A stretch of 64,000 nt of DNA from the human T2T-CHM13v2.0 reference genome, Homo sapiens (GCA_009914755.4 CP086569.2:7968001-8032000); one strand, 5' to 3'; positions 54,595-57,892 are shown, numbered from the stretch's first letter. Translations and numbers: made by a program. The notes: generated by a model not told the origin, from the sequence alone.

Positions 54595-55122
54595 CCCATA
54601 AACAAACAGATTTAGTCCAGGCCTTTCTATTAGATCCTAGTAAGATTACACAAGCAAGCATCCCTGAGCCGGTGAAAATGCCTTATAGATCACCCGGATC
54701 AAAAGGAGTAAGAATCAAGGATGCACAAATGCAGCTCAAAACACTTTGCTCAATCACAACCCTGTGGGAAACAGCAGTGATAAATATTTAGTAATAAATG
54801 AATATTTAACTAAGCTATGCTGATATCCAGGGCTGGTCAGTTTCATGCCAGCCACCATGGCCATACGATTAACCCAAGCTAATGGAACACTGCATAAAGA
54901 GTGTGTAAGTTCTGCTCTCACTAAGGCTAAACTCCATCTAAGTTGTAAAAAACTCCAGCTGAAAAACAATATACTATGAAGGTGGTTTTATTATCCTGAA
55001 GGCACAATAGCCAAGACCCAAACAGGAATTAGATAACACACTATGCTCAGCCCTAAACTCTAATAGTTACATTAACAAAACCACCAGAATACTACAAGCA
55101 ACAGCTTAAAATTTAAAGGACT
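54595..55122 (+). pseudogene. MT-RNR1: 12S rRNA-derived (5' ~0.52 kb), NUMT copy; not a functional rRNA gene
   Basis: aacagatttagtccaggcctttctattagatcctagtaagattacacaagcaagcatccc...gtgccagccaccatggccatacgattaacccaagctaatgg.. Broken at 55122 by the L1. Confidence 0.9.
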
Positions 55123-57444
55123 TGTTTTTTTCTTGTAAATTTGTTTGAGTTAATTGTAGATTCTAGATATTAGCCCTTTGTCAGATGAGTAGGTTGCAAA
55201 AATTTTCTCCCATTCTCTAGGTTGCCTATTCACTCTGATGGTGGTGTATCTTGCTGTGCAGAAGCTCCTTAGTTTAATTAGATCCCATTTGTCAATTTTG
55301 AATTTTGTTGCCACTGCTTTTGGTGTTTTAGACATGAAGCCCTTGCCCATGCCTATGTCCTGAATAGTATTGCCTAGGTTTTATTCTAGGGTTTTTATGG
55401 TTTTAGGTCTAACATGTAAGTCTTTAACCCATCTTGAATTAATTTTGGTATAAGGTGTAAAGAAGGGATCCAGTTTCAGCTTTCTGTATATGGCTAGCCA
55501 GTTTTCCCAGCAACATTTATTAAATGGGGAATCCTTTCCCTGTTTCTTGTTTTTGTCAGGTTTGTCAAAGATCAGATAGTTGTAGATATGTGACATTGTT
55601 TCTGAGGGTTGTGTTCTGTTCCATTGGCCCATATCTCTGTTTTATTACCAGTATCATGCTGTTTTGGTTACTGTAGCCTTGTAGTATAGTTTGAAGTCAG
55701 GGAGAGTGATGCCTCCAGCCTTGTTCTTTTGGCTTAGGATTGACTTGGCAATGTAGCCTCTTTTTTTGGTTCCATATGAACTTTAAAGTAGTTTTTTCCA
55801 ATTCTGTGAAGAAAGTCATTGGTAGCTTGATGGGGATGGCATTGAATCTGTAAATTACCTTGGGCAGTATGGCCATTTTCACGATATTGATTCTTCCTAT
55901 CCATGAGCATCGAATGTTCTTCCATTTGTTTGTATCCTCTTTTATTTCGCTGAGCCATGGTTTGTAGTTCTCCTTGAAGAGGTCCTTCACATCCCTTGTA
56001 AGTTGGATTCCTAGGTATTTTATTCTCTTTGAAGCAATTGTGAATGGGAGTTCACTCATGATTTGGCTCTCTGTTTGTCTGTTGTTGGTGTATAAGAATG
56101 CTTGTGATTTTTGCACATTGATTTTGTATCCTGAGACTTTGCTGAAGTTGCTTATCAGCTTAAGGAGATTTTGGGCTGAGACAATGGGGTTTTCTAGATA
56201 CACAATCATGTCATCTGCAAATAGGGACAATTTGACTTCCTCTTTTCCTAATTGAATGCCCTTTATTTCCTTCTCCTGCCTGATTGCCCTGGCTGGAAAT
56301 TCCAACACTATGTTGAATAAGAGTAGTGAGAGAGGGCATCCCTGTCTTGTGCCAGTTTTCAAATGGAATGCTTCCAGTTTTTGTCCATTCAGTATGATGT
56401 TGGCTGTCGGTTTGCCATAGATAGCTCTTATTATTTTGAGACACATGCCATCAATACCTAATTTATTGAGAGTTTTCAGCATGAAGCGTTGTTGAATTTT
56501 GTCAAAAGCCTTTTCTGCTTCTATTGAGATAATCGTGTGGTTTTTGTCTTTGGTTCTGTTTATGTGCTGGATTACATTTATTGATTTGCATATGTTGAAC
56601 CAGCCATACATCCCAGGGATGGCGAAGGATATGAACAGCACTTCTCAAAAGAAGACATTTATGCAGCCAAAAAGCACATGGAAAATTGCTCATCATCACT
56701 GACCATCAGAGAAATGCAAATCAAATCCACAAGGAGATAGCATCTCACACCAGTTAGAAGGACGATCATTAAAAAGTCAGGAAACAACAGGTGCTGGAGA
56801 GGATGTGGAGAAATAGGAACACCATTATGCTGTTGGTGGGACTGTAAACTGGTTCAACCATTGTGGAAGTCAGCGTGGTGATTCCTCAGGGATCTAAAAC
56901 TAGAAATGCCATTTGACCCAGCCATGCCATTATTGGGTATATACCCAAAGGATTACAAATGATGCTGCTATAAAGACACATGAACACGTATGTTTATTGG
57001 GGCACTATTCACAATAGCAGAGACTTGGAACCAACCCAAATGTCCAATAATGATAGATTGGATTAAGAAAATGTGGCACATATACACCATGGAATACTAT
57101 TCAGCCATAAAAAATAATCAGTTCATGTCCTTTGTAGGGACATGGATGAAGCTGGAAACTATCATTCTCAGCAAACTATTGCAAGGACAAAAAACCAAAC
57201 ACCACATGTTCTCACTCATAGGTGGGAATTGAACAATGAAAACACGTGGACACTGGAAGGGGAACATCACACACCGGGGAATGTTGTGGGGTGGGGGGAG
57301 GGGGGAGCGATAGCCTTAGGAGATATACCTAATTCTAAATGACAAGTTAACGGGTGCAGCACAACAACATGGCACATGTATACACATGTAACAAATCTGC
57401 ACATTGTGCACATGTACCCTAAAACTTATAGTATAATAATAAAA
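55123..57444. mobile_element. LINE-1 (L1PA-like) insertion with 5' inversion (twin priming): minus-oriented ORF2 segment 55123-56618 joined to plus-oriented ORF2 C-term/3'UTR/poly(A) 56619-57444
   Basis: Track ORF 55697..56641(-) is the ORF2 reverse-transcriptase core (..[14 protein letters not shown]..). 55150..55632(-) are ORF2 C-terminal peptides. 56990..57232(+) reads ..MFIGALFTIAETWNQPKCP..MEYYSAIKNN. The element ends gtataataataaaaaaaa. 15-bp TSD aaaatttaaaggact at 55108-55122 and aaaa(a)ttaaaggact at 57444-57458; both flanks are 12S rRNA sequence. Confidence 0.92.
55697..56618 (-). pseudogene. L1 ORF2 reverse-transcriptase fragment (within the inverted L1 segment), non-functional
   Basis: 314-aa open frame with RT motifs ([22 protein letters not shown]) but no start codon, no endonuclease or C-terminal domains; truncated at the inversion junction. 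Confidence 0.85.
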
Positions 57445-57892
57445 AAAATTAAAGGACTCAGCGGTGCTTTATATCCCTCTAGAGGAGCCTGTTTTTTAAT
57501 CAATAAAACCTGATATACCTCACCACTTCTTGCCCCCAACCTATATATCCCCCTCTTTAGAAAACCCTAAAATGGTTATAGAGTAAGCACAAGCATACCC
57601 ACAAAAATGTTAGATCAAGGTGTAGCTCCTGAGCTGGCAAGAAGTGGACTACATTTTCTGTACCCAGAATATCTCATAACAACTTCTATGAATTCTAAGG
57701 GCTCAAGGAGAATTTAGCAGTAAACCAAGAGCAGAGTGCTTGGTTGAATAAGGCCATGAAGCATGCATATACCACCTGTCACCCTCCTCAAATATTATTC
57801 TAGAAATTACTATTACTGAAAATTCTCCATGCACTTATAAAGGAGCTCCATGACAAAATGGTAAGCATACTGAAAAGTGTGCTTGGACAAAC
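57445..57892 (+). pseudogene. MT-RNR1: 12S rRNA-derived (3' ~0.45 kb), NUMT copy
   Basis: ..aaaggactcagcggtgctttatatccctctagaggagcctgtt...gttagatcaaggtgtagctcctgagctggcaagaagtggactacattttctg..cacctgtcaccctcctcaa..gtaagcatactgaaaagtgtgcttggacaaac. Confidence 0.9.

What the first reader, a model, noticed from the sequence alone, without database searches (positions are those of the whole stretch)
55108..57458. Twin-primed (5'-inverted) L1 insertion into the 12S rRNA segment of the NUMT, with a 15-bp TSD
A 2.3-kb L1 splits the 12S-derived sequence. The 3' segment (56619-57444, plus strand) carries the ORF2 C-terminus, the 3'UTR and poly(A). The adjacent upstream L1 region, the ORF2 RT domain to C-terminal region, is present immediately 5' but inverted (55123-56618, minus strand). 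Only a small gap separates the two in L1 coordinates. This is the classic signature of twin priming during target-primed reverse transcription. The flanking direct repeats aaaatttaaaggact (55108-55122) and aaaa(a)ttaaaggact (57444-57458) are both 12S sequence; human has gcttaaaactcaaaggacctggcggtgc here. They sit at a TT|AAAA-like L1 endonuclease site. This dates the L1 as younger than the NUMT. It also explains the 314-aa ORF in the track as an RT remnant.
Basis: partly seen in the sequence, partly recalled or inferred. Interest (0 to 1): 0.5.

Follow-up and report, generated by a model that had tools for sequence, protein, structure and literature searches.

The report
Twin-primed old L1 inside a NUMT
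A 2.3-kb LINE-1 retrotransposon copy, with its upstream part flipped during insertion, sits inside a nuclear copy of the mitochondrial 12S rRNA gene; this is a textbook, very common kind of L1 insertion and nothing more.

Summary
Window 55122/3-56621 (minus strand) encodes L1 ORF2p residues 566-1066. Window 56621/2-57448 (plus strand) carries ORF2p 1072/3-1275, the stop codon, the 3'UTR and a short A-tail. In L1 coordinates the two pieces are separated by a 19-nt gap. The L1-3'-most end of the inverted piece abuts the upstream target-site duplication (TSD), which is the topology twin priming predicts. One 15-bp TSD (14/15 identical) brackets the composite, and it starts at a perfect TT|AAAA endonuclease site. 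Removing 55123-57458 restores an uninterrupted 12S rRNA: 952 nt then lie between the NUMT's tRNA-Phe and tRNA-Val, against 954 nt in human. The 314-aa ORF is a reverse-transcriptase remnant (Pfam RVT_1). The TSD has one mismatch and merges with the A-tail. The L1 is a decayed older L1PA-type copy: about 6-7% non-CpG divergence from L1HS in ORF2, two frameshifts and eight stop codons. It is therefore almost certainly fixed, not polymorphic. About one in five L1 insertions has a 5' inversion, so this is an ordinary example of a known process. Interest is low.

The parts
55106..55111 (.). L1 endonuclease target TT|AAAA. The bottom strand reads 5'-TTTT/AA-3'. The nick falls between 55107 and 55108.
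   Evidence: Sequence read directly. The TSD begins at 55108.
55108..55122 (.). 5' copy of the target-site duplication, AAAATTTAAAGGACT. It is NUMT 12S sequence. The last T (55122) could equally be the last base of the inverted L1.
55122..56621 (-). Inverted L1 segment (the internally primed cDNA). It covers ORF2 codon 566 position 3 to codon 1066 position 1, about 1.5 kb: the RT domain through most of the C-terminal region. It has one 1-bp insertion near 55767, four stop codons, and is 93.5% identical to L1HS.
   Evidence: PDB ORF2p hits, Pfam RVT_1, DNA alignment, frame translations.
56620..56621 (.). Inversion junction. The bases 'tg' can be assigned to either segment (1-2 nt of microhomology). 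There is no filler DNA.
   Evidence: Both alignments claim window 56621. Sequence read.
56621..57232 (+). Non-inverted L1 segment, coding part: ORF2 codon 1072 position 3 to the stop codon (57230-57232). It has a 1-bp deletion near 56639 and four in-frame stop codons.
57233..57437 (+). L1 3'UTR, 12% non-CpG divergence from L1HS. It reads GACAAGTTA where L1HS-Ta has GACACATTA.
   Evidence: alignment.
57438..57448 (+). Short degenerate A-tail, AATAAAAAAAA. Its last 4-5 A's overlap the start of the 3' TSD copy.
57444..57458 (.). 3' copy of the TSD, AAAAATTAAAGGACT. It differs from the 5' copy at one position (57448 is A where the 5' copy has T).
55697..56641 (-). The 314-aa ORF. Residues 8-295 match ORF2p 567-854 (RT). 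Residues 1-7 are antisense of the non-inverted segment. The C-terminal ~19 residues are frameshifted.
54605..55122 (+). 5' part of the NUMT 12S rRNA, following tRNA-Phe at 54533-54604.
   Evidence: BLAST to recalled human mtDNA. tRNA-like hit with anticodon GAA.
57459..57892 (+). 3' part of the NUMT 12S rRNA, followed by tRNA-Val at 57893-57961.

Best explanation
This is one L1 retrotransposition event that went through twin priming, into an already resident NUMT.

Inferred steps, following the standard model:
1. L1 endonuclease nicked the bottom strand at 5'-TTTT/AA-3' (top strand gcTT|AAAA, 55107/55108).
2. The poly(A) tail of an L1PA-type RNA annealed there. Reverse transcription from that nick copied the 3'UTR and the end of ORF2, back to about codon 1072.
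3. The top strand was cut 15 nt downstream, after ...AAAGGACT.
4. Its 3' end primed a second cDNA on the same RNA, 19 nt upstream of where the first cDNA stopped. This was at the L1's own A-rich tract, AAGAAAAAAACAA (codons 1062-1066). The second cDNA ran about 1.5 kb towards the 5' end of the RNA, to codon 566.
5. The two cDNA ends were joined at a 1-2 nt microhomology, and gap filling produced the 15-bp TSD.

The result reads: TSD, inverted ORF2 1066->566, ORF2 1072->end with 3'UTR and A-tail, TSD.

What is shown directly: the anatomy, the strands, the L1 coordinates, the TSD, the nick-site motif, and the restoration of 12S when the insertion is removed. What is inferred from the established model: the order of nicking and priming, and the use of a single RNA.

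The element is now a dead fossil with frameshifts and stop codons. It has no function beyond splitting the NUMT.
For: - Segments on opposite strands map to ORF2p 567-1066 and 1071/3-1275.
- The DNA alignment gives a 19-nt gap. The codon-1066 end of the inverted piece sits against the 5' TSD, and its codon-566 end sits against the non-inverted piece.
- The second in-window L1 contains the missing 19 nt.
- The TSD is 14/15 identical at exactly the outer edges of the composite. Chance was 3/3000 with slack.
- The TT|AAAA motif is present.
- The empty-site reconstruction aligns without a gap to 12S.
- tRNA-Phe and tRNA-Val lie 3288 nt apart. Subtracting 2336 nt leaves 952 nt, against a 954-nt human 12S (the human length is from general knowledge).
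- Non-CpG divergence from L1HS is indistinguishable between the two ORF2 portions: 5.7% against 6.9%, Fisher p=0.31. This is consistent with a single age.
- No inverted repeat exists between the arms, so there is no overlap.
- In the literature, 5' inversions occur in 18-22% of L1 insertions, and 46% of those have the two cDNAs within 20 bp of each other (PMC12016303). [quoted passage not shown]
Against: - Sequence alone cannot show the order of events. An in-place inversion of the 5' part of a collinear insertion would give the same arrangement.
- Complementarity between the top-strand 3' end (...GGACT) and the L1 RNA at the internal priming site is only 1 nt.
- The TSD is not perfect: it has one mismatch, and its A-rich start merges with the tail, so its true length is 10-15 bp.
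Both were checked indirectly. The L1HS reference translates to an intact ORF2p that differs at 9 of 709 residues from the PDB sequences. The mtDNA reference aligns over 2.3 kb with E=0 and agrees with the independent Rfam and tRNA hits.
- No orthologous empty site could be examined.
Confidence: 0.9

Rival explanations
1. An ordinary collinear, 5'-truncated L1 (ORF2 codon 566 to the end) inserted first. Later a chromosomal inversion flipped its first 1.5 kb and lost 19 bp.
For: It gives the same final order and orientation of the pieces (reasoning).
Against: One inversion breakpoint would have to fall exactly on the L1/TSD boundary, to within 1 nt. There are no inverted repeats that could drive such an inversion. 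Twin priming gives this boundary for free and is common.
Confidence: 0.04
2. Two different L1 RNAs were used in one event, either by 'dual priming' or by template switching. The inverted piece would then come from a second transcript.
For: Dual priming has been proposed as a theoretical alternative (PMC2837659).
Against: Dual priming starts the second cDNA at a poly(A) tail. Here the inverted piece starts inside ORF2 and has no tail of its own. The two pieces end within 19 nt of each other in a 6-kb element, which is unlikely for independent templates. Their divergence is similar.
Confidence: 0.03
3. Two independent L1 insertions happened to land next to each other in opposite orientation.
For: L1 fragments are abundant, and another lies in the same window.
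Against: Only one TSD pair exists, and it brackets the composite. The inverted piece has no poly(A) and no TSD of its own. The L1 coordinates are adjacent. Removing the whole block restores 12S exactly.
Confidence: 0.02
4. Assembly artefact: a mis-join inside L1 sequence.
For: None specific.
Against: Both outer junctions carry matching TSD copies of unique NUMT sequence. The inner junction shows the expected microhomology and a small deletion.
Confidence: 0.01

Closest known systems
Twin-primed (5'-inverted) L1 insertions (model of Ostertag & Kazazian 2001, as described in PMC2837659 and quantified in PMC12016303)
   Same: A single TSD pair, an endonuclease-consensus nick site, and a non-inverted 3' piece with an A-tail. 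The inverted upstream piece has its 3'-most L1 coordinate against the 5' TSD. A small internal deletion (19 nt) is present, with 1-2 nt of junction microhomology. The piece lengths (1.5 kb inverted, 0.83 kb non-inverted) are within the range reported for germline events.
   Different: Nothing essential. The target happens to be a NUMT, and the copy is old and decayed.
Ordinary 5'-truncated L1 insertion by target-primed reverse transcription
   Same: TSD, TT|AAAA site, poly(A) end and 5' truncation.
   Different: The upstream 1.5 kb is inverted, and 19 nt are missing at the switch point.
Twin-priming variants with a 5' poly(T) stretch, or 'dual priming' (PMC2837659)
   Same: The second strand is used as a primer during L1 integration.
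   Different: Those loci have a very short or absent non-inverted piece and a 5' poly(T). Here the non-inverted piece is 0.83 kb, and the inverted piece starts inside ORF2, not in a tail.
'Complex' NUMTs fragmented by later mobile-element insertion (PMC5570036)
   Same: A NUMT collinear with mtDNA is split by a younger transposable element. A BLAST-based count would score it as two NUMTs.
   Different: None. This is an instance of it.

Membership tests
LINE-1 (primate L1PA lineage) copy | Encodes ORF2p-homologous sequence (RT and C-terminal domains) | tested here: met
   PDB human ORF2p hits with E from 1e-172 to 1e-119. Pfam RVT_1, E=9e-29.
LINE-1 (primate L1PA lineage) copy | L1 3'UTR followed by a poly(A) tract at the 3' end | tested here: met
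   The 3'UTR aligns to recalled L1HS through to ...AGTATAATAA, followed by an A-run. The tail is short, 6-11 nt.
LINE-1 (primate L1PA lineage) copy | Assignment to a named subfamily (L1PA2...L1PA8) by diagnostic positions | not testable with these tools
   No Dfam or Repbase consensus library is available. It is not L1HS-Ta: GACAAGTTA stands in place of GACACATTA, and non-CpG divergence is 5.7-12%. A rough guess of L1PA4-7 rests on memory only.
Twin-primed L1 insertion | Two fragments of the same L1 in opposite orientation inside one TSD pair | tested here: met
Twin-primed L1 insertion | Topology: the inverted piece has its L1-3'-most base at the 5' TSD, and its L1-5'-most base joins the 5' end of the non-inverted piece | tested here: met
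   Window 55122 corresponds to codon 1066 and window 56621 to codon 566. The non-inverted piece starts at codon 1072.
Twin-primed L1 insertion | Adjacent L1 coordinates, with a small internal deletion or duplication at the switch point | tested here: met
   19-nt gap, cross-checked on the in-window L1 at 33228-34456. 46% of reported cases lie within 20 bp.
Twin-primed L1 insertion | Endonuclease consensus site and a TSD of typical length | tested here: met
   TT|AAAA site and a 15-bp TSD, 14/15 identical. The reported median TSD is 13 bp.
Twin-primed L1 insertion | Both pieces derive from one RNA and one event (same age and subfamily) | tested here: inconclusive
   Non-CpG divergence of the two ORF2 parts is 5.7% against 6.9%, p=0.31. 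This is consistent with one event but is not a proof. Subfamily diagnostics were not available.
Twin-primed L1 insertion | Existence of the pre-insertion empty site in an outgroup species | not testable with these tools
   No primate genomes are in the collections. A metagenome scan for the junction 21-mer gave only an unrelated AT-rich, apparently bacterial contig. The empty site was reconstructed only in silico.
NUMT (12S rRNA part) | Flanks collinear with mitochondrial gene order and sequence | tested here: met
   BLAST to recalled human mtDNA gives, in order, cytb, D-loop, 12S, 16S, ND1 and ND2 at 72-78% identity. Independent support comes from the Rfam LSU rRNA hit, tRNA-Gln on the minus strand, and tRNA-Phe and tRNA-Val flanking the 12S interval.

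The most novel reading that the evidence does not exclude
The inverted cDNA starts exactly at L1's own internal A-rich tract (AAGAAAAAAACAA, ORF2 codons 1062-1066). It shows only 1 nt of complementarity to the top-strand primer. The sequence does not exclude that second-strand priming in twin priming is steered by ORF2p's preference for A-rich template, rather than by primer-template microhomology. That would make this tract a recurrent internal priming hotspot. A published survey reports 'peaks' of twin-priming breakpoints along L1. Its per-insertion table (S12) was truncated in the held copy, so this could not be checked. One fossil copy cannot establish it.
Probability: 0.15. Interest if true: 0.3.

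Novelty: already known. Interest (0 to 1): 0.07.

Why it matters
It matters little beyond annotation.
- The two oppositely oriented L1 fragments should be counted as one insertion event.
- The two 12S-derived blocks should be counted as one NUMT.
- The nesting gives a relative date: the NUMT is older than an already old L1PA-type insertion.
- The 314-aa ORF is a dead reverse-transcriptase remnant, not a gene.

Tried and rejected
- Rfam gave no SSU rRNA hit on the 12S flanks, even at E<=1. The 12S is too diverged from the bacterial models. The sub-threshold tRNA-Phe and tRNA-Val hits in that same search turned out to be useful instead.
- A metagenome scan for the NUMT/TSD 21-mer was meant to find independent filled or empty alleles. 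It returned a single unrelated AT-rich, apparently bacterial contig, a chance match.
- The original twin-priming paper (PMC311219) is not in the held library. Secondary sources were used.
- Supplementary Table S12 of PMC12016303 lists positions of inverted-cDNA starts and was wanted to test an internal-priming hotspot. It is truncated in the stored copy.
- Subfamily assignment was not possible, because no L1PA consensus library is available. Only divergence from a recalled L1HS sequence could be measured.
- TRF found no tandem array in the repeat-rich surroundings. The identity of that repeat family was left open.
- Rejected: two independent insertions, later inversion, dual priming and mis-assembly. 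See the rival explanations.

Full report
**What is there.** The stretch 55108-57458 was read directly and translated in all frames.

On the minus strand, the 314-aa ORF (55697-56641) matches human LINE-1 ORF2p residues 567-854 in solved structures (8sxt and others, E=1e-172). It also matches Pfam RVT_1 (E=9e-29). After a 1-bp insertion, the adjoining minus-strand frame continues through ORF2p 856-1066 (E=6e-119).

On the plus strand, from about 56621, the sequence encodes ORF2p 1071/1073-1275 (E=2e-121). This part has one 1-bp deletion and four stop codons. The ORF2 stop codon (57230-57232), the L1 3'UTR and a short A-run follow.

**L1 coordinates.** It translates without stops and differs from the PDB-printed ORF2p at only 9 of 709 residues.

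Against this reference:
- The inverted piece aligns from window 56621 down to 55122. That is codon 566 position 3 to codon 1066 position 1, at 93.5% identity.
- The non-inverted piece aligns from window 56621 to 57448. That is codon 1072 position 3 to the end of the element, at 91.1% identity.
- The two are therefore separated by 19 nt of L1 sequence.

In L1.3 numbering this is about nt 3688-5186 and nt 5206 to the end. That numbering rests on my memory that ORF2 starts at nt 1991.

A tool-only cross-check agrees. A second L1 3' fragment in the same window (33228-34456) aligns to the end of the inverted piece and to the start of the non-inverted piece. It carries the intervening ...AACAACCCCATCCAAAAGTGG... 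that is missing here.

**Junctions.**
- At the 5' edge, the TSD ends ...AAAGGACT and the inverted L1 begins immediately. One T (55122) can be assigned to either.
- At the inversion junction, 'tg' (56620-56621) can be assigned to either piece.
- There is no filler DNA.
- No inverted repeat links the two arms, so there is a gap rather than an overlap.

**TSD and target.** The direct repeat is 55108-55122 AAAATTTAAAGGACT against 57444-57458 AAAAATTAAAGGACT, 14/15 identical. Among 3000 random place pairs at the same spacing, with +-10 nt of freedom on both sides, only 3 reached 14/15.

The repeat starts right after 'tt', so the bottom strand reads 5'-TTTT/AA-3'. This is the canonical L1 endonuclease site.

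The A's at the start of the 3' copy merge with the A-tail, so the strictly provable TSD is 10-15 bp. The single mismatch (57448 A against T) is most simply a later substitution in the 3' copy. The 5' copy agrees better with mitochondrial 12S, which has C at this position.

| mtDNA region | Window coordinates |
|---|---|
| cytb | 51991-53213 |
| D-loop | 53501-53837 |
| 12S, mt ~596-1175 | 54553-55124 |
| 12S, 16S and ND1, mt ~1159-3457 | 57444-59738 |
| ND1 and ND2, mt ~4056-4958 | 59763-60639 |

Identity is 72-78%. The two 12S blocks overlap by about 15-17 nt in mitochondrial coordinates, which is the TSD. Deleting 55123-57458 gives a gap-free alignment to 12S.

Support that does not depend on the recalled reference:
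- Rfam LSU rRNA hit at 58960-59388.
- tRNA-Gln on the minus strand at 60024-60098.
- Sub-threshold tRNA hits with anticodons GAA (Phe, 54533-54604) and UAC (Val, 57893-57961), bracketing the interval.
- The Phe-to-Val distance is 3288 nt. Subtracting the 2336-nt insertion plus one TSD copy leaves 952 nt, against 954 nt for human 12S (the human length is from general knowledge).

The TSD is NUMT sequence, so the L1 is younger than the NUMT.

**Mechanism.** The layout is: TSD, inverted L1 (1066->566), L1 (1072->end) with A-tail, TSD. [quoted passage not shown]

In a recent long-read survey, 18-22% of L1 insertions carried a 5' inversion. In 46% of those, the two cDNAs ended within 20 bp of each other. 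Median lengths in germline events were 751 bp (inverted) and 571 bp (non-inverted), and the median TSD was 13 bp (PMC12016303). The present copy, at 1.5 kb, 0.83 kb, a 19-nt gap and a 15-bp TSD, is unremarkable within that range.

The two ORF2 portions are equally diverged from L1HS at non-CpG sites: 5.7% against 6.9%, Fisher p=0.31. This is consistent with one event. The 3'UTR is more diverged (12.3%). From general knowledge, L1PA subfamilies differ most there.

**Rivals.**
- A later in-place inversion would need a breakpoint exactly at the L1/TSD boundary, and nothing in the sequence would drive it.
- Dual priming would start the inverted piece at a poly(A) tail, which it lacks.
- Two independent insertions would leave two TSD pairs and unrelated coordinates.
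- Mis-assembly is contradicted by the matched TSD in unique NUMT sequence.

Together I give these about 10%.

**Age.** The copy has two frameshifts and eight stop codons in total: four in the inverted piece and four in the non-inverted piece. Of 44 bases at CpG sites, 21 are mutated. The 3'UTR reads GACAAGTTA where L1HS-Ta has GACACATTA. It is therefore not a young human-specific L1. From memory of subfamily features, it looks like a mid-age L1PA, roughly L1PA4-7 and tens of millions of years old. This was not tested. Polymorphism in present-day humans is very unlikely.

**Verdict.** This is a routine, well-understood type of L1 insertion, inside a NUMT of the 'complex' kind already described (PMC5570036). 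Novelty: already known. Interest: low.

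Noticed in passing
window 2374-51448 and 60696-63096: Most of the window outside the NUMT consists of diverged copies (67-80% identity, alignments of 2 kb or more, both orientations) of one repeat family. This family flanks the NUMT on both sides. It has a weak internal periodicity of about 70-71 nt, with further signals near 35 and 140 nt, by autocorrelation. 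TRF detects no array. A motif like 'catcacctgggtgctgggcc...gaaatatgtcacaat' recurs. The family was not identified.
   Followed up: partly
window 33228-34456 (+): A second L1 3' fragment, apparently a plain 5'-truncated copy. It is 85-87% identical to the L1 studied, so probably from a different, older subfamily. It abuts a minus-strand copy of the unidentified repeat at 31613-33215.
   Followed up: partly
window 59738-59763: The NUMT lacks about 600 bp of ND1: mt ~3458-4055 is absent between two otherwise collinear blocks. This explains why tRNA-Gln lies only about 650 nt after the 16S hit.
   Followed up: partly
window 51991-60639: Extent of the NUMT: it runs from cytb to mid-ND2, collinear with mtDNA across the D-loop, so it derives from a circular or concatenated template. 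Identity to modern human mtDNA is 72-78%, so the NUMT is old. No hit to mt 5511-9206 was found downstream. The translated sequence just upstream of 51991 hints that the NUMT may start a few hundred bases earlier, in the ND6/tRNA-Glu region. This was not checked.
   Followed up: partly
window ~48900-48940: A 41-nt fragment matching the reverse complement of an Alu 5' end (caaagttctggaattataggcattagccactgtgcccggcc) sits exactly where many copies of the unidentified repeat stop aligning.
   Followed up: no
window 55451-55558 (-): A weak Rfam hit to the lncRNA family NPPA-AS1_3 (17.5 bits, E=0.95) falls inside the L1 ORF2 sequence. It is either chance or a sign that this Rfam region is itself L1-derived.
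   Followed up: no
window 49766-49856 and 44048-44093: Small tandem repeats: a 33-nt unit x3 (with a 24-nt sub-period), and (AAAT)11.
   Followed up: no
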